Source: a virus
Lineage: Duplodnaviria > Caudoviricetes
DNA: 64,000 nucleotides
Virus record (IMG/VR): IMGVR_UViG_3300022719_000071
Location: 224,001 to 288,000 of that record
Strand: one strand, 5' to 3'
Shown: piece by piece, positions 643-53,409 of the stretch
Numbering within the stretch: the first letter of the stretch is position 1
Layout: each line of letters opens with the position of its first letter
Notes under the pieces: model-generated
The model's database searches: none
What the model saw: only the letters and a program-made list of their open reading frames with translations
What the model was told of the DNA's origin: nothing
Made by a program: the position numbers and the translations under genes

Positions 643-1386
643 ATGGCTTACGATTACGATACAGATATTCTTACTGGTCTATGGACTGGTGCTGAAGATG
701 GTGCAGAACCATACGCATCTTTCCTAGCAGCAAACCCAACATTAACAGACGACGTGGCAGAGAATAGAATTCTTTCGACCATTGAAGCAGTTCGCTCCCA
801 CATGGAGTTGCTGGCAGACCGTGACGAGGCTCGCCTTTTCCACTTCTGCCTGAGCACCATGCTTGAGGGTTTTGGCTCCGGTGGTTTTGTCTATGGAAGC
901 ACTTCCCGCAACGAGCAGGTAATTGTAGAAGGAAACAAGCCTAACGCAGTCTTTACAGCAACCGATGATATCGAGTTTGCTGAGCTTGACGGTGTAAGCG
1001 GTGGTGCTTCTATCTCTATAGTTGCTGCTGGTGGTACCACAGTCGATGACGTAGTTACTGCTATCAACGGTGACGGTGCTCTAACTGCTGCTGGAATCTT
1101 CGCAGAGGTCACTCCAGACCGTCGTCTGCGCATCTACCAGGAGCCTGTTGCTCCTGCGACCGCTGCTGCTGGCTTTGTTATCACGCAGGCCGCCGGCGGT
1201 GCTAACGACCTTATCATTGCCAACGCTGGTATTTCCATTCAGGCTCCGGGCAATCCAAACGGATTGACTAAAGGTGGTCTGAACGGTGGTGTCTTCTTGG
1301 CTAAGGTAACCCAGGTTGCCAACAGGGCACGTGACCGTGCTCTACAGGTATTCGCAGGACAGATCAGAGAAAGCGATCTAACATAA
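643..1386 (+). CDS. Probable late/virion structural protein
   Basis: Ala/Gly/Thr-rich ORF; TAAATA at about 601 and GAGGA RBS before ATG 643. Confidence 0.5.
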   Translation: MAYDYDTDILTGLWTGAEDGAEPYASFLAANPTLTDDVAENRILSTIEAVRSHMELLADRDEARLFHFCLSTMLEGFGSGGFVYGSTSRNEQVIVEGNKPNAVFTATDDIEFAELDGVSGGASISIVAAGGTTVDDVVTAINGDGALTAAGIFAEVTPDRRLRIYQEPVAPATAAAGFVITQAAGGANDLIIANAGISIQAPGNPNGLTKGGLNGGVFLAKVTQVANRARDRALQVFAGQIRESDLT

Positions 1387-2414: not shown

Positions 2415-3443
2415 ATGACGGATATCCTCGCTGAAATCAAGCTGGTAATCCCCGGCAACCGACGAGTATCGCCCTCGGGTTGGATTAACCTTTGTTGTCC
2501 AGCCTGTGGCGACCGTCGCTATCGTGGGGGTTTCAAATTCACTCCTACGGGTGGCTTCCGTTATTACTGCTTTAACGGTGGTTGCGACTTCAACCTACGT
2601 CCAACCGGTTGGGAGCCAGAGGAAGGTTTTGGTGGTCGCCCTCGTAAGCTCTTTGAAATGTTGGGTGGCGACGTTCGTAAGATCCCGCTGAAGGAAATAA
2701 TGAAGTGGAACAACAAGAGGTACACTTCAAGCGGAGAGGTTGAATTCGTAGAAAAGGAAGCTGAGGTATCTTGGCAATTTCCATCAGCCAGATTGCCAAA
2801 AGGCAGTGTGCCACTTCTTGATGTGGCTCATATAGACCCTGCTGCAAACAAGGTTATGCAGTATGCAGCCAAGGAAAGAAGGTTGGGCTATTTGGTAAAG
2901 GAGCTGCCATTGATGTGGTCTCCTGAGCAACCATATTACATGCTGATCCCGTACATCCACTACAATGACAAGATCGTTGGTTACCTTGGCCGACACATCT
3001 TCAGGAAAAGCGGACCCAAACGTTTCATTCAGAAAGCCCCCAAAGATTACGTATTCAATCAGCATCTCATATCCAGTTATGACGCTCGATATCTGTTTGT
3101 GGTAGAGTCCCCACTGGATGCGTTGATACTGGGCTGTGTAGCAGTTCGTAATGACCGCATGACTGAGAAACAGGTAAACCTCTTGAAAGTCAGCGGAAAA
3201 GAGATAGTTTTAATACCAGACCGCAAAGAAGGAGAATGGGACGGTTTCTTTCAAATTGCTAAGGAAAACAACTGGTTCGTTTCTGTTCCTCGGTGGCCCG
3301 GACACGAAAGATGGGAGCGTGCCTCGGATATAGCTGAGTGTGCACGAAAGAATGGTCGTCTTTACACTATAGAGACGATCATGGATGCTGCCACACGCAA
3401 CCTTAACAAAGCCCGTGAAATGATAACCCTGCAACAAACATGA
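2415..3443 (+). CDS. DNA primase (T4 gp61-like)
   Basis: N-terminal Zn ribbon CPACGD...CFNGGC; TOPRIM-like VVESPLDA and LIPD; adjacent to helicase. Confidence 0.85.
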   Translation: MTDILAEIKLVIPGNRRVSPSGWINLCCPACGDRRYRGGFKFTPTGGFRYYCFNGGCDFNLRPTGWEPEEGFGGRPRKLFEMLGGDVRKIPLKEIMKWNNKRYTSSGEVEFVEKEAEVSWQFPSARLPKGSVPLLDVAHIDPAANKVMQYAAKERRLGYLVKELPLMWSPEQPYYMLIPYIHYNDKIVGYLGRHIFRKSGPKRFIQKAPKDYVFNQHLISSYDARYLFVVESPLDALILGCVAVRNDRMTEKQVNLLKVSGKEIVLIPDRKEGEWDGFFQIAKENNWFVSVPRWPGHERWERASDIAECARKNGRLYTIETIMDAATRNLNKAREMITLQQT

Positions 3444-25724: not shown

Positions 25725-26834
25725 ATGCAAACATACCCGACCCTGTACTCTCGTGACACCATTGGCAACATCCGTGTCTGGTGGATGGAACGTGATGGTT
25801 TTCACTATCGCACCGCATCTGGTATCAAGGATGGAGAGATCGTGCATTCGGAGTGGCGTCGTGCGTACGTGACGAACCAAGGCAAGGCCAACGAACGTTC
25901 CGCCGAGATCCAAGCCGACGCCGAAATCAAATCGTCATACGACAAGAAGCTACGCATGAAGTACCACGAGGCTGAGGCTGACGTGGACAAGGACAAGTAT
26001 TTCAAGCCGATGCTCGCCAAGGAGTTCGGCAAGGAAACTTCCAAGAAGGGCGTTTCCTTCCCCGTGCACAGCCAACCGAAGCTGGATGGCATTCGTTGCC
26101 TTGTCACCGCCGAGGGTGCATGGTCCCGCACAGGCAAGCCTATTCTGGCGATTCCGCACATCCTGGAGGCCCTGGCTCCACTGTTTGCGAAAGACCCCGA
26201 TCTAGTACTCGACGGCGAGCTGTACAATCACGACCTGAAGGATGACTTTAATACCATCACGTCCGTGGTTCGCAAACTGGAGCCTAATCCCGAGCAGCTT
26301 GCTGATTCAGCACGCCTGATTCAGTATCACGTGTACGACTGTCCGTCCGTGGATGGATCATTTGAAATTCGCATTAATACTCTGGTTGCTCTGCTGATGA
26401 ACATGCCCGAGTGTGTCGTTCTGGTGGACACGCAGTTTGTGTTGGATCAGGAGACTCTGGATTTCTTGTACGCTGAGTACATGAAGAACGGCTACGAGGG
26501 ACAGATGGTGCGCCTGGGTGGAACCTACGAGCAGAAGCGCTCGAAGTTCCTATTGAAGCGCAAAGAGTTCAAGGATGCCGAGTTCGAGATCGTGGAGGTA
26601 AAGTCGGGGCAAGGGAATTGGGAAGGTTACGCCAAGACCCTGACCGTGCGTCTTCCTGACGGCAGAACGTGCGATTCGGGTATGCGTGGTAATCAGCAGT
26701 ACCTGAAGGAAGTACTGGAGAACGCTGACTCCTATGTCGGCAAGCAGGCGACCATTCGCTACCAGGATCTGACTCCGGACGGCAAGCTTAGGTTTCCTGT
26801 TGCCGTGGCGCTGCACCTGGAGGAGCGCTGGTGA
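25725..26834 (+). CDS. ATP-dependent DNA ligase
   Basis: Motif I QPKLDGIRC, VLDGELY, YEGQM, LLKRKE and C-terminal OB fold LRFPV. Confidence 0.92.
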   Translation: MQTYPTLYSRDTIGNIRVWWMERDGFHYRTASGIKDGEIVHSEWRRAYVTNQGKANERSAEIQADAEIKSSYDKKLRMKYHEAEADVDKDKYFKPMLAKEFGKETSKKGVSFPVHSQPKLDGIRCLVTAEGAWSRTGKPILAIPHILEALAPLFAKDPDLVLDGELYNHDLKDDFNTITSVVRKLEPNPEQLADSARLIQYHVYDCPSVDGSFEIRINTLVALLMNMPECVVLVDTQFVLDQETLDFLYAEYMKNGYEGQMVRLGGTYEQKRSKFLLKRKEFKDAEFEIVEVKSGQGNWEGYAKTLTVRLPDGRTCDSGMRGNQQYLKEVLENADSYVGKQATIRYQDLTPDGKLRFPVAVALHLEERW

Positions 26835-27022
26835 GCGAAATGAAGAAGCCTACTGACATCATTGTTGATATTCATCGTGAACTTGAGGCTCTTGCGGAGG
26901 CTGCTGTACAGGAACAGCATGCTGATGCCAGCCGTGTTGATAGCACACTCGACTACTACGAGGATGAATTTGCGAAATGGATCGTAGCCAAATTTAAGAA
27001 GGAAGTTCTAGATGAAAATTAA
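26831..27022 (+). CDS. Hypothetical protein
   Basis: GTGA overlap with the ligase gene. Confidence 0.5.
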   Translation: MSEMKKPTDIIVDIHRELEALAEAAVQEQHADASRVDSTLDYYEDEFAKWIVAKFKKEVLDEN

Positions 27023-27368
27023 GGTCTTTCTGGACGACGTGCGTAAGGAGCCTGTTGGATGGGTACGGGCGCACACGGCCCAGGACGCTATCGAGTGGCT
27101 TCAGGAGAGAGAGGTAAGCCACATCAGCCTGGACCATGACCTGGGTTCAGAAGAGGCTGGTACTGGCTACGACGTGTTGAAGTGGATTGAGAGGGAGGTC
27201 GCCATGGCTGGTTATGAGCCTCCGCACATGACCATTCATTCTGCCAATCCAGTGGGTCGTAAGCGCATGGAGATGGCGATCCAGAGCATCCTGCGTCTGT
27301 ATGAGGTAGCTAACATGGAGTACCAGGAGGATGGATATAGCGGCCCTGGTGAAGATAATTGGGACTAA
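27012..27368 (+). CDS. Cyclic-phosphate-processing receiver domain protein
   Basis: VFLDDVR, ISLDHDLG, TGYDVLKWIE and IHSANPVGRKRM motifs. Confidence 0.8.
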   Translation: MKIKVFLDDVRKEPVGWVRAHTAQDAIEWLQEREVSHISLDHDLGSEEAGTGYDVLKWIEREVAMAGYEPPHMTIHSANPVGRKRMEMAIQSILRLYEVANMEYQEDGYSGPGEDNWD

Positions 27369-27372
27369 CCTC

Positions 27373-27401
27373 TTGACTTCTTGTTGGGACAATGATAAAT
27401 A
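27373..27401 (+). promoter_or_regulatory. Composite promoter TTGACT-N17-TAAATA
   Basis: Same architecture as the 20345 promoter; precedes ncRNA A. Confidence 0.7.
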
Positions 27402-27407
27402 TAGACT

Positions 27408-27628
27408 GTGCATTGCTTAGTAGCGGTCTACCACGGGATACACCGGGAGGAGTGAACGCAGTGTGACCGAGTGTGAAGATTCAGACGGCGACCTGTGATG
27501 TGTCAATTCTAAGCAGGAAAGCCCTCTGACATAAGACGTTTGTATCGGATCACTTGAAGAATTGACTGTAACTCACGGCAGCCAGATAAAGGCAGGTTCG
27601 TGAGCGGTGGGATGGAAGTTCCCGCCTA
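27408..27628 (+). ncRNA. Candidate structured ncRNA A (unassigned)
   Basis: Non-coding; stems CATTGC/GCAGTG, GTAG/CTAC, GTCAATTCT/AGAATTGAC and CTCACG/CGTGAG. Confidence 0.55.
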
Positions 27629-27632
27629 TTAC

Positions 27633-27710
27633 GGTTGTGTAGCTCAATCTGGTTAGAGCACTCCCCTGTCACGGGAAAGGTTGAGGGTTCGAATCCCTTC
27701 ACGACCGCCA
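27633..27710 (+). tRNA. trnD: tRNA-Asp(GUC)
   Basis: Anticodon loop CTGTCAC; TTCGAAT T-loop; CCA end. Confidence 0.9.
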
Positions 27711-27831
27711 ATTTAGAGAAACACATCGCCTGTCTGAGCTTTGTGTGGGGACCATACCACTAGGTTGATAGTGGACAGACCGAGACCACGGGCTTATGTC
27801 ACGTGGGATGCAATGGAAGTTTGCAATTAAT

Positions 27832-27910
27832 GGCCCGTTAGCATAGTCTGTCCTAATGCGCCAGCTTGTCACGCTGGAGATCAAGGGTTAGAATCCCTTA
27901 CGGGTCGCCA
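27832..27910 (+). tRNA. trnD: tRNA-Asp(GUC), second copy
   Basis: CCAGC-TTGTCAC-GCTGG; variant T-loop TTAGAAT; CCA end. Confidence 0.88.
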
Positions 27911-27946
27911 AGTTTTTGGCCAACATGGAAGTTCCTTGTCAACGTG

Positions 27947-28073
27947 GTATCAGCGTAAATGACGGGTCGGCCAAGGGGAGTTGTGTGACTTCACTCTCGC
28001 CAAACTCTCTGGAAGGAGAGCTAATATTAAAAGGCCGAAAAGTGATACTGGAGTTCTGTGATTGAATACTCCA
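27947..28073 (+). ncRNA. Candidate structured ncRNA E (unassigned)
   Basis: Nested stems GTATCA/TGATAC, TCGGCC/GGCCGA, GAGT/ACTC, CTCTC/GAGAG, then TGGAGT/ACTCCA. Confidence 0.45.
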
Positions 28074-28080
28074 TTTAACC

Positions 28081-28188
28081 ATGGTTTTGTTTGTGAAGTT
28101 CGATCACCCGGTGCCTGGGGTTACAAGGCTGATTATGGTTTTGTTTGTGAAATTCGATCACCCGGTGCCTGGGGTTACAAGGCTGATT
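28081..28188. repeat. 54-bp tandem duplication (2 copies, 1 mismatch)
   Basis: ATGGTTTTGTTTGTGAA(G/A)TTCGATCACCCGGTGCCTGGGGTTACAAGGCTGATT twice. Confidence 0.95.
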
Positions 28189-28287
28189 TTTGCTTTAAAA
28201 TAGATATTATTTTATTATAAAAGTCACCGTGACTGCGACTGGATGAGGAAGCCATTTCGCAGATTCCTATGGAAGTTGGGTAAGTTT

Positions 28288-28364
28288 CAGGGTATAGCTC
28301 AGACTGGTAGAGCGCTCGTTTCGGATACGAGAGGCCGCAGGTTCAAATCCTGCTACCCTGACCA
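28288..28364 (+). tRNA. trnP: tRNA-Pro(CGG)
   Basis: CTCGT-TTCGGAT-ACGAG; CCA end. Confidence 0.9.
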
Positions 28365-28402
28365 CGACATGGCGTAGCTCAGTCTGGTTTCTAGGTGGAT
28401 TA

Positions 28403-29236
28403 TTACGGGAAGATTCCGAATGCACCAGCGTTATAGTGATTTAAAACCTCTGTTGGTGTGAGCACACGATCATAGATAGCAAGTTCATCCACAATACCTT
28501 CTAGTGCTGTAGCAGGCTGTGGTCCCTGCAACGATCCATTGTTATATTCGTTTCCAATCAAACCTCCTGGTGCTTGACCGGAGACTGGTGTGTATTTAAT
28601 ATCACCAGTCTTGGTATCACTGGCGTCGAGTACTCCGTTGACGTAGAGAATACGACTTCCAGAGGTATATGTTCCAACCACGTGATATATTGAGCCTGCC
28701 GGAAAGACATTTCCTTGAAGGTAAGCATTACCTGCGGTGTTTTGGTTAGGACCATCAACGGTACCGAGATAGAAACGGAATGTACCAACGTTAAATCCGT
28801 AAATTAATTTGTATCCAGAGAAATCCAAAGTGCTCCCTGAAGCGTATTGAATGAGCGCTTCGTTCACATTGGGTGGTTTACACCAACATTCGATGGAAAC
28901 CGTCTTGGTTGGTTCCAAGATGGAACTCTGACCAAAGTTCCAATGGTCTGCTAGGGCGTTGTTACCCCCGACTGCTCCATCATTATCTGAAGCACCAGAA
29001 ATTAATCCAGGCTCACCGTAACGCATAGGAGCACCATTCTCAGTAGCTGTGAAACCATTACCCGAAGAATCAGCCAAAGTAGGACCAGAAGATTCACCAG
29101 CACGCCAGTAAGCAATTGGACCATCTTGTAGAATCAGAGATTCATAGGTCATTGGGCCGGATGGACCCAAACTGAGTATACCGCCGTTACTGACAATAAT
29201 TGAAGAACCGTTTTCGATTATAATTATTCCAGACAT
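28403..29236 (-). CDS. LamG/concanavalin A-like lectin domain virion protein
   Basis: PIAYWR.GE..G.T.ADSSG, SIECW, HVVGTY, LYVNG and GIVDELAIYDRVLT motifs; TAAATA on the minus strand upstream of ATG 29236. Confidence 0.85.
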   Translation of the reverse strand: MSGIIIIENGSSIIVSNGGILSLGPSGPMTYESLILQDGPIAYWRAGESSGPTLADSSGNGFTATENGAPMRYGEPGLISGASDNDGAVGGNNALADHWNFGQSSILEPTKTVSIECWCKPPNVNEALIQYASGSTLDFSGYKLIYGFNVGTFRFYLGTVDGPNQNTAGNAYLQGNVFPAGSIYHVVGTYTSGSRILYVNGVLDASDTKTGDIKYTPVSGQAPGGLIGNEYNNGSLQGPQPATALEGIVDELAIYDRVLTPTEVLNHYNAGAFGIFP

Positions 29237-29298
29237 TTGAAATTTCCAAGTTCTTTTGTTATATTTACTGTTCCATCTTAACAACTCGGTCATTAGTC

Positions 29299-29733
29299 AT
29301 GCAAAACCCAGATCCTCATAATCGAGGCATGGAAGCTGTCAAGCTTGCTCATCAATACACCTGGAGACAACAGAAGAGGCTGTTCCCGGTTACTGTTGGC
29401 ATCCTGACATGGATGATGGGATACAGCTTGCTGACGTTCAGCTTTTTCCCTCTGTTTCAACTCAACATCCTTTCGTGGGTAATACTTATGGCCATTATGT
29501 TTTTGACCAGGAAAAAACTGAACGAAGAATTTCTTGAATACTTGAAATGCCAGAGAATTGGAAAAGAGATGGACTGGAAGACGGTCGTCTATAACGGATG
29601 GTTGAACTATGCTGCCACGCTAATCTGCCTGTATTGGGTTTTGATGATCGCTTGGATTTCGTTCTTTATGCCGGAAGGTGGAATCTATGAACTTTACGAG
29701 ATGGATCCCACCAACAAACCCTTGACTTCCTAA
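29299..29733 (+). CDS. Hypothetical membrane protein
   Basis: Three to four hydrophobic segments. Confidence 0.6.
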   Translation: MQNPDPHNRGMEAVKLAHQYTWRQQKRLFPVTVGILTWMMGYSLLTFSFFPLFQLNILSWVILMAIMFLTRKKLNEEFLEYLKCQRIGKEMDWKTVVYNGWLNYAATLICLYWVLMIAWISFFMPEGGIYELYEMDPTNKPLTS

Positions 29734-29752
29734 CCCTAACTACCTATAAATA
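29722..29752 (+). promoter_or_regulatory. Composite promoter TTGACT-N17-TATAAATA
   Basis: Exact architecture match to the other RNA-island promoters. Confidence 0.75.
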
Positions 29753-29948
29753 CAACATGCAACGACGGTATCCTGTCGCATTGTGTTTACCATCATAAAG
29801 TGTGCACACTTTATTGATGAGAATGAGGCTTTTTATGTGAGATTTTGCGCCTCGTGTTATGGACATAATAAGTTTGTCATAGCACACCAGACATTGAATC
29901 TGGGTAAGCAGCAACCTATTCATTCATTAATGGGAATGAAGTTGTACC

Positions 29949-30022
29949 AGCTTAATGGTGGAATGGTTAGACACATCTGGTTTAAAACTAGACACATTGC
30001 AGGTTCGAATCCTGCTTAAGCA
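29949..30022 (+). tRNA. Atypical or degenerate tRNA-Leu(UAA)
   Basis: Leu-type D-arm; TCTGG-TTTAAAA-CTAGA; good T-arm, but 6-bp acceptor, short variable loop and no CCA. Confidence 0.5.
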
Positions 30023-30102
30023 ATTGGATAAATCATCACCGTGACTGCGATGGAGGATACATACGCAGATATCGATGGAAGTTCGATAAAATTGCAGACA
30101 CT

Positions 30103-30181
30103 CAGGGTATAGCTCAGTCTGGTCAGAGCGCTGGTCTTGGGAACCAGAGGTCCGCAGGTTCGAATCCTGCTACCCTGACCA
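30103..30181 (+). tRNA. trnP: tRNA-Pro(UGG)
   Basis: CTGGT-CTTGGGA-ACCAG; CCA end. Confidence 0.92.
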
Positions 30182-30314
30182 AATCTTGTACTAAATGCTT
30201 ACAAGAAAAGTCGTTAACCGAATTTCCGGATTAGGAGTCGATCCAAAGGGACTTATCAATCATGGTGTAATCGGCACATATTCAGAACTCATGGATATTC
30301 AACGGGAGATCCGA

Positions 30315-52861: not shown

Positions 52862-52992
52862 AACAAGCATTGCTTGAACTGGGGTTGAAAGTAGGCAAGG
52901 TAAGTGATCATAGCCGTGCTGAGGATAGACCGGGGAATGACCCTCGTTGCAGAGTCGGCGTTGGAAGTACAGAGCCCCCACCCAAGCATTAT

Positions 52993-53333: not shown

Positions 53334-53409
53334 GGACTCGTAGCTCAATTGGCAGAGCACCCGGCTCTTAACCCGGGGGTTGCAGGATCGTTGCCTGCCG
53401 AGTCCACCA
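53334..53409 (+). tRNA. trnK: tRNA-Lys(CUU), copy 1
   Basis: Loop CTCTTAA; C.C mismatch in the anticodon stem; T-loop ATCGTTG; CCA end. Confidence 0.85.

What the first reader, a model, noticed from the sequence alone, without database searches (positions are those of the whole stretch)
27608..30087. Repeated A-TGGAAGT-T loop hairpin preceding tRNAs
Seen: ATGGAAGTT at 27612, 27813, 27925, 28269 and 30075 (a weaker TGGAAGT at about 52962). In four cases the loop is closed by different complementary flanks (GTGGG/CCCGC, TGCA/TGCA, CCT/GGG, ATCG/CGAT), so the stems vary while the loop is constant. It usually follows another hairpin and lies 10-20 nt before a tRNA. The two tRNA-Pro leaders also share TCACCGTGACTGCGA (28224, 30036). 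Inference: a protein-binding site (boxB-like antitermination) or a processing signal for tRNA maturation.
Basis: partly seen in the sequence, partly recalled or inferred. Interest (0 to 1): 0.65.

Follow-up and report, generated by a model that had tools for sequence, protein, structure and literature searches.

The report
Conserved hairpin leader before phage tRNA-Pro
A small group of uncultured giant phages puts the same short folded RNA signal, a hairpin whose stem changes while its 7-base loop stays fixed, just in front of their proline (and some aspartate) tRNA genes. It matches no catalogued RNA family and probably marks these tRNA precursors for a still unknown binding partner.

Summary
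ATGGAAGTT occurs 8 times in the 360-kb phage genome, and 5 of those lie in 2.5 kb. Four copies form hairpins with different stems, ending 10-19 nt before tRNA-Asp (x2) and tRNA-Pro (x2). The other 38 tRNAs lack the motif.

I found six related phage contigs through two neighbouring proteins. All carry the same hairpin in front of tRNA-Pro, and one also in front of tRNA-Asp. That gives 15 instances in 7 lineages.
- The loop reads U-G-G-R-A-R-U, with U1, G2, G3, A5 and U7 invariant.
- All five stem pairs show compensatory changes, and G-U pairs place the fold on the tRNA strand, so it acts as RNA.
- A second, covarying hairpin lies directly upstream. The module begins with a copy of a tRNA 3' end.

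Neither Rfam nor the papers I searched describe it. No boxA lies nearby, and the phage encodes no CsrA or RegB.

Best reading: a new pre-tRNA leader element that serves as a sequence-specific recognition site and is tied to 5' maturation. The partner is unknown. The nearest known shapes are a CsrA-type GGA hairpin and a T-arm-like loop. A boxB-like antitermination site is not supported.

A loosely similar tRNA leader was reported earlier in Saccharibacteria.

The parts
27572..27626 (+). Leader module before tRNA-Asp 1. Hairpin A is 27572-27604, hairpin B is 27606-27626, and the loop motif is 27612-27620.
   Evidence: The minimum-energy fold gives both hairpins, z -3.8. Models R1 and R2 hit it. 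The hairpin is identical in relative L289.
27780..27825 (+). Leader module before tRNA-Asp 2. The box is 27780-27785, hairpin A is 27786-27806, hairpin B is 27809-27825, and the motif is 27813-27821.
   Evidence: Its hairpin A stem is the type seen before tRNA-Pro in L290, L291, L309 and L311.
28227..28281 (+). Leader module before tRNA-Pro(CGG). The box is 28227-28232, hairpin A is 28233-28262, hairpin B is 28265-28281, and the motif is 28269-28277.
   Evidence: Hairpin B is weak here (3 pairs plus A-U), and the loop bases are only 0.33-0.84 unpaired in the ensemble.
30039..30087 (+). Leader module before tRNA-Pro(UGG). The box is 30039-30044, hairpin A is 30045-30068, hairpin B is 30071-30087, and the motif is 30075-30083.
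27633..27710 (+). tRNA-Asp(GUC) 1
   Evidence: ARAGORN and Rfam
27832..27910 (+). tRNA-Asp(GUC) 2
28288..28364 (+). tRNA-Pro(CGG)
30103..30181 (+). tRNA-Pro(UGG)
27925..27933 (+). Fifth copy of the 9-mer, without a closing stem, at the 5' edge of the next structured spacer RNA. Probably not a member of the hairpin family.
   Evidence: no model hit. L289 has a 2-mismatch version at the same place.
28005..28020 (+). Separate conserved hairpin with UGGAAG at its tip.
   Evidence: Fold. Identical sequence in L289.
27373..27401 (+). Sigma-70-like promoter (TTGACT, 17 nt, TAAATA) that would start the transcript carrying the Asp and Pro leaders.
   Evidence: Read from the sequence. The same consensus precedes other tRNA clusters and the L289 homologue. 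Function is inferred.
29722..29752 (+). Second promoter of the same type, upstream of the odd class-I tRNA and tRNA-Pro(UGG).
   Evidence: repeat D15. Conserved in L289 and L290. Function is inferred.

Best explanation
The element is a two-hairpin RNA module of about 50-65 nt, transcribed as the 5' leader of tRNA-Pro precursors, and of tRNA-Asp in this lineage and its nearest relative. It occurs in a small clade of uncultured jumbo phages. Hairpin B presents an invariant 7-nt loop (U-G-G-R-A-R-U on a closing A-U pair), and its base usually lies 3-7 nt upstream of the RNase P cleavage site. I propose that the loop is a sequence-specific docking site for a trans-acting factor that acts on the precursor. 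That factor could be a protein or RNase P itself. Docking would set the rate or order of 5' maturation, or the stability of the released leader. Shown: the element exists, folds at the RNA level, is under purifying selection, and is always next to a tRNA 5' end. Inferred: that a factor binds the loop, and what binding does.
For: - Local excess: 5 of the 8 genomic copies lie in 2.5 kb.
- Specificity: covariance model R1 finds only the four hairpins in 360 kb, at 27-30 bits against 14-15 bits for the next best hits.
- Conservation: the same hairpin stands before tRNA-Pro in L289, L290, L291, L309, L310 and L311, and before tRNA-Asp in L289. The neighbouring LamG protein is only 52-62% identical in L289-L291, and the spacers are only 40-63% identical.
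- Covariation: alignment A5 (15 instances, 14 distinct) has 88.6% of cells paired against 59.9% in shuffles and 21-59% in slid controls. All 5 pairs carry compensatory changes, including the closing A-U to G-C.
- Hairpin A also covaries.
- G-U pairs in the stems would be A-C mismatches on the other strand, so the fold belongs to the tRNA strand.
- Position: in the 10 modules measured, the motif ends 7-12 nt before tRNA +1 in 9 and 19 nt before it in 1. The later contigs fit: 3-5 nt in L309, L311 and one L310 copy, and about 22 nt in the other L310 copy.
Against: - No partner has been identified, and no expression or end-mapping data could be obtained.
- In four relatives the minimum-energy fold of the isolated leader does not contain hairpin B, or does so only within 0.8-2.3 kcal/mol of the optimum.
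- Only Pro and some Asp tRNAs carry the element, so it is not needed for tRNA maturation in general.
- Copies within one genome show concerted evolution, such as the identical 15-mer in both Pro leaders. This inflates the apparent conservation within a genome.
Confidence: 0.45

Rival explanations
1. The loop is a CsrA/RsmA-type site. The host's CsrA dimer binds the GGA in the loop, either to gate processing of these precursors or so that the abundant released leaders titrate CsrA in the way CsrB and RsmZ do.
For: All 15 loops keep GGA within a hairpin loop, including both loop variants. In 14 of the 15 the 9-mer reads A-N-GGA-N-G, the sequence pattern of high-affinity RsmE/CsrA sites as described in PMC4005645. 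GGAAG occurs 6-7 times per kb in the non-coding tRNA-operon RNA of this phage and of L289, against about 1.4 expected. Hairpin A loops of L289 and L311 hold a second AUGGAAG.
Against: - The register differs from the known optimum. The A is base-paired, the loop has 7 nt, and the closing C-G of the hexaloop is absent.
- Positions outside GGA (U1, A5, U7) are invariant, which CsrA recognition does not require.
- GGA is not clearly enriched in the 50 nt upstream: 20 seen against 13.9 expected.
- There is no match to CsrB or RsmX/Y/Z models even at E = 10.
- The phage has no csrA gene, and the host is unknown.
- The fixed distance to the tRNA 5' end has no role in a sponge.
Confidence: 0.17
2. The loop is a T-arm-like (T-loop) fold that makes an RNA-RNA tertiary contact in cis with the downstream tRNA or with RNase P RNA. 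It would act as a folding or positioning aid for the precursor rather than as a protein site.
For: The size matches a tRNA T arm: a 4-7 bp stem and a 7-nt loop. The invariant positions U1, G2 and A5, with a purine at position 4, fit the UGNNA pattern of T-loops that dock tRNA elbows in RNase P, T-box leaders and the L1 stalk (PMC3664808; alignment A5). The constant short spacer to tRNA +1 suits a contact in cis.
Against: The partner AGNNA T-loop of the known double module is not consistently present in hairpin A (read from alignment A2). A sequence pattern of five bases is weak evidence for a fold.
Confidence: 0.12
3. The module is a processive antitermination signal. It would be either boxB-like with an N-type protein, or put-like, acting directly on RNA polymerase. 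Its role would be to protect long untranslated tRNA and non-coding RNA transcripts from Rho or intrinsic termination.
For: Two adjacent hairpins 1-4 nt apart resemble the HK022 put layout (from memory, not tested). The transcripts are about 1 kb and untranslated.
Against: No boxA within 3 kb. The loop size and sequence are unlike boxB. Four copies in 2.5 kb, each locked to a tRNA 5' end, is not what an antitermination signal needs. No terminator-like site follows these tRNAs.
Confidence: 0.07
4. The loop is a base-pairing seed, for example a kissing contact with the anticodon loop of tRNA-Gly(UCC) or with another RNA. The released leader would then act as a small regulatory RNA.
For: UGGAAG is fully complementary to positions 32-37 of the phage's own tRNA-Gly(UCC) anticodon loop. 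The A4-to-G loop variant would keep pairing through a G-U wobble. Spacers of tRNA operons acting as regulatory RNAs are known in E. coli (from memory).
Against: No conserved hairpin displaying the complement was found in the genome or in L289, L290 or L291. The G6-to-A variant in L311 would break the pairing at position 32 of that anticodon loop. There is no obvious rationale linking Pro or Asp leaders to tRNA-Gly.
Confidence: 0.07
5. The module is a relic with no present function. It would be the leftover spacer of tandemly duplicated tRNA units or of a small mobile tRNA-linked cassette, kept uniform by gene conversion, or a site acting at the DNA level.
For: The head of the module copies a tRNA 3' end: 11 of 12 bases in L290 and 10 of 12 before tRNA-Asp 1. 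A truncated tRNA lies next to tRNA-Pro(CGG). The paralogous Pro leaders share an identical 15-mer.
Against: The loop is kept across seven lineages whose flanking spacers are near random identity. Stems change by compensation and include G-U pairs, which a DNA site or drift would not give.
Confidence: 0.05

Closest known systems
CsrA/RsmE binding hairpins (A(N)GGAX loops of CsrB, RsmZ and target mRNAs; PMC4005645)
   Same: GGA is displayed in the loop of short hairpins whose stems differ between copies. There are several copies per transcript. The sequence pattern A-N-GGA-N-G is shared.
   Different: The loop has 7 nt with the A paired. Extra positions are invariant. The element sits at a fixed place before a tRNA. 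No GGA-dense sponge architecture is present. There is no Rfam match, and no CsrA is known for this system.
Lambda and P22 nut boxB hairpins
   Same: A short RNA hairpin recognised through its loop, encoded early in phage transcripts.
   Different: boxB has a GNRA-like pentaloop, a conserved stem and a nearby boxA. None of these features is present here.
tRNA T arm and T-loop motif (UGNNA; PMC3664808)
   Same: A 7-nt loop on a short stem. The conserved U1, G2, purine 4 and A5 are shared.
   Different: GG replaces the pseudouridine-C of real T loops. There is no second T-loop partner. The fold has not been shown.
Stable extra RNAs and spacers of phage and bacterial tRNA operons (T4 species 1 and 2 RNAs; E. 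coli tRNA-spacer regulatory RNAs; recalled from memory)
   Same: Non-tRNA structured RNA co-transcribed with tRNAs and released by tRNA processing.
   Different: Those RNAs have no repeated loop motif at a fixed distance from tRNA 5' ends.
Structured tRNA leader of Saccharibacteria noted earlier in this scan (e1-5016921)
   Same: An invariant purine-rich loop on covarying stems in front of tRNA genes, also uncatalogued.
   Different: The loop sequence, host group and range of tRNAs differ. No sequence relation was tested here.

Membership tests
nut boxB (lambdoid N antitermination) | GNRA-like pentaloop on a 5-bp stem | tested here: not met
   The loop is 7 nt, U-G-G-R-A-R-U, closed by A-U.
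nut boxB (lambdoid N antitermination) | boxA element a few nt upstream | tested here: not met
   No match to either boxA consensus in 27300-30200. The 12-nt rrn boxA was allowed up to 3 mismatches and the 8-nt lambda boxA up to 1.
nut boxB (lambdoid N antitermination) | Cognate arginine-rich N protein | not tested
   No search was made. Such peptides are too short and diverged for the tools used.
CsrA/Rsm binding site or sponge RNA | GGA exposed in a hairpin loop | tested here: met
   15 of 15 loops.
CsrA/Rsm binding site or sponge RNA | A(N)GGAX hexaloop set directly on the stem (high-affinity form) | tested here: not met
   The A is paired with U9, and the base before it cannot pair with G7 in most copies.
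CsrA/Rsm binding site or sponge RNA | Many GGA sites per RNA, or homology to CsrB/RsmX/Y/Z | tested here: not met
   GGA upstream was 20 against 13.9 expected. No Rfam hit at E up to 10.
CsrA/Rsm binding site or sponge RNA | CsrA present in the phage or its host | tested here: inconclusive
   No PF02599 match in the phage. The host was not identified.
T-loop / T-arm | Five-base pattern with U (or A) at position 1, G at 2 and A at 5 | tested here: met
   U1, G2 and A5 are invariant and position 4 is a purine. The pattern is taken from PMC3664808.
T-loop / T-arm | Reverse-Hoogsteen 1-5 pair with a base intercalated between positions 4 and 5 | not testable with these tools
   This needs probing or a solved structure.
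[quoted passage not shown] | A second AGNNA T-loop in the same module | tested here: not met
   By my reading of alignment A2, AGNNA is present in the hairpin A loop in only some of the 10 modules.
Any Rfam family | Covariance-model match | tested here: not met
   Only tRNA models match in 27400-30300 below E = 0.2.

The most novel reading that the evidence does not exclude
The module is a new class of cis-regulatory pre-tRNA leader. A loop-specific partner, or a T-loop contact with RNase P or with the tRNA itself, gates 5' cleavage of phage tRNA-Pro. The phage could thereby time or prioritise the supply of particular tRNAs during infection.
Probability: 0.25. Interest if true: 0.75.

Novelty: new variant of a known kind. 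Interest (0 to 1): 0.55.

Why it matters
Bacterial and phage tRNA leaders are usually treated as disposable sequence removed by RNase P. This leader is under strong selection for a fixed loop at a fixed distance from the cleavage site, and it is specific to certain tRNAs. That would point to regulated or assisted maturation of individual phage tRNAs, or to leaders that have a second life as small RNAs or protein decoys. It also gives a concrete, small, testable RNA (about 25 nt for hairpin B) with a natural mutational series.

Tried and rejected
**Searches for relatives that gave nothing useful**
- A 15-mer pattern in IMG/VR gave 118 chance hits, none with the motif.
- Relatives found through the ligase in viral and metagenome contigs were at most 53% identical and had no motif near 205 tRNAs.
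- DNA polymerase peptide patterns gave nothing.
- The nearest large contig, G001, has the 9-mer but not in its tRNA cluster, and no model hit.
- A tRNA-Pro 3' 25-mer found six unrelated contigs.
- Patterns joining the motif to a tRNA start gave only chance-like hits, away from tRNAs or without a stem, in IMG/VR and in bacterial genomes.
- cREC homologues were mostly unrelated. Three contigs are the same phage strain from other samples.
- The contigs behind LamG homologue P0004 could not be read, and those of P0006 and P0068 added nothing new.

**Ideas set aside**
- Mini-ORF starting at the AUG of the motif: no consistent Shine-Dalgarno sequence, and the stop is not conserved in relatives (read).
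- Shine-Dalgarno mimic: the phage uses AGGAG or GAGGA, and GGAAG is not enriched before starts.
- RegB-type nuclease site: no RegB homologue.
- CRISPR repeat of the phage's own array: unrelated sequence.
- Promoter for a hairpin-reading polymerase: the G-U pairs are on the wrong strand for it, and sigma-70-like promoters lie upstream.
- Pairing of the conserved box with the 5' half of hairpin B or with tRNA +1 to +4: it appears in some minimum-energy folds, but it is only 3-6 pairs, and the box does not covary with its own tRNA. It is left as unexplained.

- No complex prediction was run.
Full report
**Setting.** The window is bases 224001-288000 of a single 360,469-bp virus record. The record has 42 tRNA genes. 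Its T4-type DNA polymerase is about 35% identical to those of cultured jumbo phages. Many tRNA clusters are preceded by a sigma-70-like promoter, TTGAC, about 17 nt, TATAAATA. One such promoter at 27373-27401 would start a roughly 1-kb untranslated transcript. That transcript carries a structured RNA, two tRNA-Asp genes, further structured spacers and tRNA-Pro(CGG). A second promoter at 29722-29752 precedes an odd class-I tRNA and tRNA-Pro(UGG).

**The observation.**
- The whole genome has 8 copies, and 5 of them lie in 2.5 kb.
- A scan for the motif flanked by complementary bases finds only four hairpins with an exact loop, at 27612, 27813, 28269 and 30075.
- A covariance model built from them (R1, alignment A1) scores these at 27-30 bits and nothing else in 360 kb above 15 bits.
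- The 27925 copy has no stem. The TGGAAGT near 52963 is at chance level.
- Each hairpin is preceded by another hairpin and ends 10-19 nt before a tRNA.
- Only tRNA-Asp (x2) and tRNA-Pro (x2) have it. The other 38 tRNAs do not.

**Relatives.** Searches through the ligase gene, the polymerase and DNA patterns found no close kin in IMG/VR, JGI metagenomes or bacterial genomes. Two neighbouring proteins did lead to relatives.
- The LamG-domain protein (28403-29293, minus strand) has homologues of 52-62% identity on contigs L289, L291 and L290. L290 shows the same gene order: ligase, cREC, tRNAs, LamG.
- A profile of the 144-residue protein at 29299-29733 reached more distant contigs, L309, L310 and L311.
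- In all six contigs, R1 hits lie directly before tRNA-Pro genes. In L289 one also lies before the first tRNA-Asp.
- The second Asp gene of L289 and the Asp genes of L290 and L291 lack it. tRNA-Pro is therefore the core association.

**Conservation and structure.**
- Between this phage and L289 or L290 the tRNAs are 78-95% identical, while the spacers are only 40-63% identical. That is close to what unrelated sequence gives in a global alignment.
- Against this background the loop is almost invariant in 15 instances (alignment A5). U1, G2, G3, A5 and U7 never change. Position 4 is A, and G once. Position 6 is G, and A once.
- The closing pair is A-U in 14 instances and G-C in the 15th.
- All five stem pairs show changes on both sides that keep pairing. 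88.6% of cells are paired, against 59.9% after shuffling and 21-59% when the partner is slid.
- Several pairs are G-U. On the opposite strand these would be A-C, so the fold belongs to the strand that carries the tRNAs and is an RNA feature.
- The upstream hairpin A also covaries through three fully complementary stem versions. RNAalifold predicts both hairpins on its own.
- A model of the whole module (R2) scores the ten training instances at 49-59 bits and nothing else above 17 bits.

**Further anatomy.**
- Upstream of hairpin A lies a conserved box, C-C-G-Y-G-A. Together with the first bases of hairpin A it copies the 3' end of a tRNA: 11 of 12 bases in L290 before tRNA-Pro(CGG), and 10 of 12 before tRNA-Asp 1 here. 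This points to an origin as the spacer of tandem tRNA units.
- The identical 15-mer in both Pro leaders of this genome shows gene conversion between copies.
- In some relatives the lowest-energy fold pairs the box with the 5' half of hairpin B or with the first bases of the tRNA. Hairpin B is then 0.8-2.3 kcal/mol above the optimum. I could not show that this alternative pairing is selected.

**What it is not.**
- No Rfam family other than tRNA matches the region below E = 0.2.
- No boxA is nearby.
- The phage encodes no CsrA and no RegB.
- The motif is unrelated to the phage's CRISPR repeat.
- It is not a typical ribosome-binding sequence of this phage.
- It does not start a conserved small reading frame.
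- I found no paper describing such a leader.

**Mechanism.** The evidence shows a selected, strand-specific RNA hairpin whose loop sequence matters, held at a short distance from the RNase P site of particular precursors. In the 10 modules measured, the motif ends 7-12 nt before tRNA +1 in 9 and 19 nt before it in 1. The later contigs mostly fit this, with one L310 copy about 22 nt away. The simplest account is a docking site for a factor that acts on the precursor or on the released leader.

Two known shapes fit the loop. The first is a CsrA-type GGA hairpin. The pattern A-N-GGA-N-G is met, but the structural register, the extra invariant bases, the lack of GGA density and the fixed position argue against a plain CsrA sponge. 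The second is a T-arm-like loop. The UGNNA pattern of elbow-docking T-loops is met, but the partner loop of the known double module is absent. Antitermination, a base-pairing seed (the loop is complementary to the tRNA-Gly(UCC) anticodon loop) and a functionless relic are less likely, for the reasons given under the rival explanations.

**Verdict.** This is a real, uncatalogued, narrowly distributed RNA element of phage tRNA-Pro and tRNA-Asp leaders. Its function is open. A loosely similar leader was reported in Saccharibacteria (e1-5016921).

Noticed in passing
window 29949-30023; L289 442-517 (-); L290 9283-9356 (-); L309 1151-1221; L310 1703-1777: The class-I tRNA that sits just before the tRNA-Pro(UGG) leader is clearly orthologous between this phage and L289. 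Its anticodon is UAA here, UUC in L289, and UUG in L290, L309 and L310. This looks like anticodon switching in one tRNA lineage.
   Followed up: partly
L291 about 1060-1113 (-): The tRNA-Pro(CGG)-like gene behind the hairpin in L291 appears to lack a T arm (about 54 nt). ARAGORN does not call it. It is either a pseudogene or a truncated tRNA.
   Followed up: no
window 28369-28390: The 5' part of a tRNA (acceptor and D arm) follows tRNA-Pro(CGG) and stops where the LamG gene ends. L289 has an intact second tRNA-Pro(UGG) at that place, so a tRNA was truncated in this lineage.
   Followed up: partly
window 25725-27368; L290 11586-13626: An ATP-dependent ligase and a cREC (cyclic-phosphate processing receiver, PF20274) gene lie directly upstream of the Asp/Pro tRNA operon, both here and in L290. 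This may be an RNA heal-and-seal pair kept next to these tRNAs.
   Followed up: partly
window 28081-28188: Two tandem 54-nt repeats (98% identical) lie between the structured spacer and the tRNA-Pro(CGG) leader. L289 has no such duplication there.
   Followed up: no
window 28005-28020; L289 about 2655-2670 (-): A hairpin with six C/U-G/A pairs and a GGAA tip is identical in this phage and in L289, inside an otherwise diverged spacer RNA.
   Followed up: no
window 27572-27583, 27780-27790, 28227-28238, 30039-30049: Each leader module starts with a short copy of a tRNA 3' end (acceptor strand, discriminator and CCA-like bases). In L290 it matches that contig's own tRNA-Pro(CGG) in 11 of 12 bases.
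   Followed up: partly
window 53334-53409; genome 22700-22777 (-): One tRNA has an 8-nt anticodon loop (four-base anticodon CUUA), and another has anticodon CUA, which reads the amber stop codon.
   Followed up: no
L311 361-383: A variant of the leader hairpin before tRNA-Pro(CGG) has the closing pair changed from A-U to G-C and loop position 6 changed from G to A. It is the most diverged copy seen and is useful as a natural mutant.
   Followed up: partly
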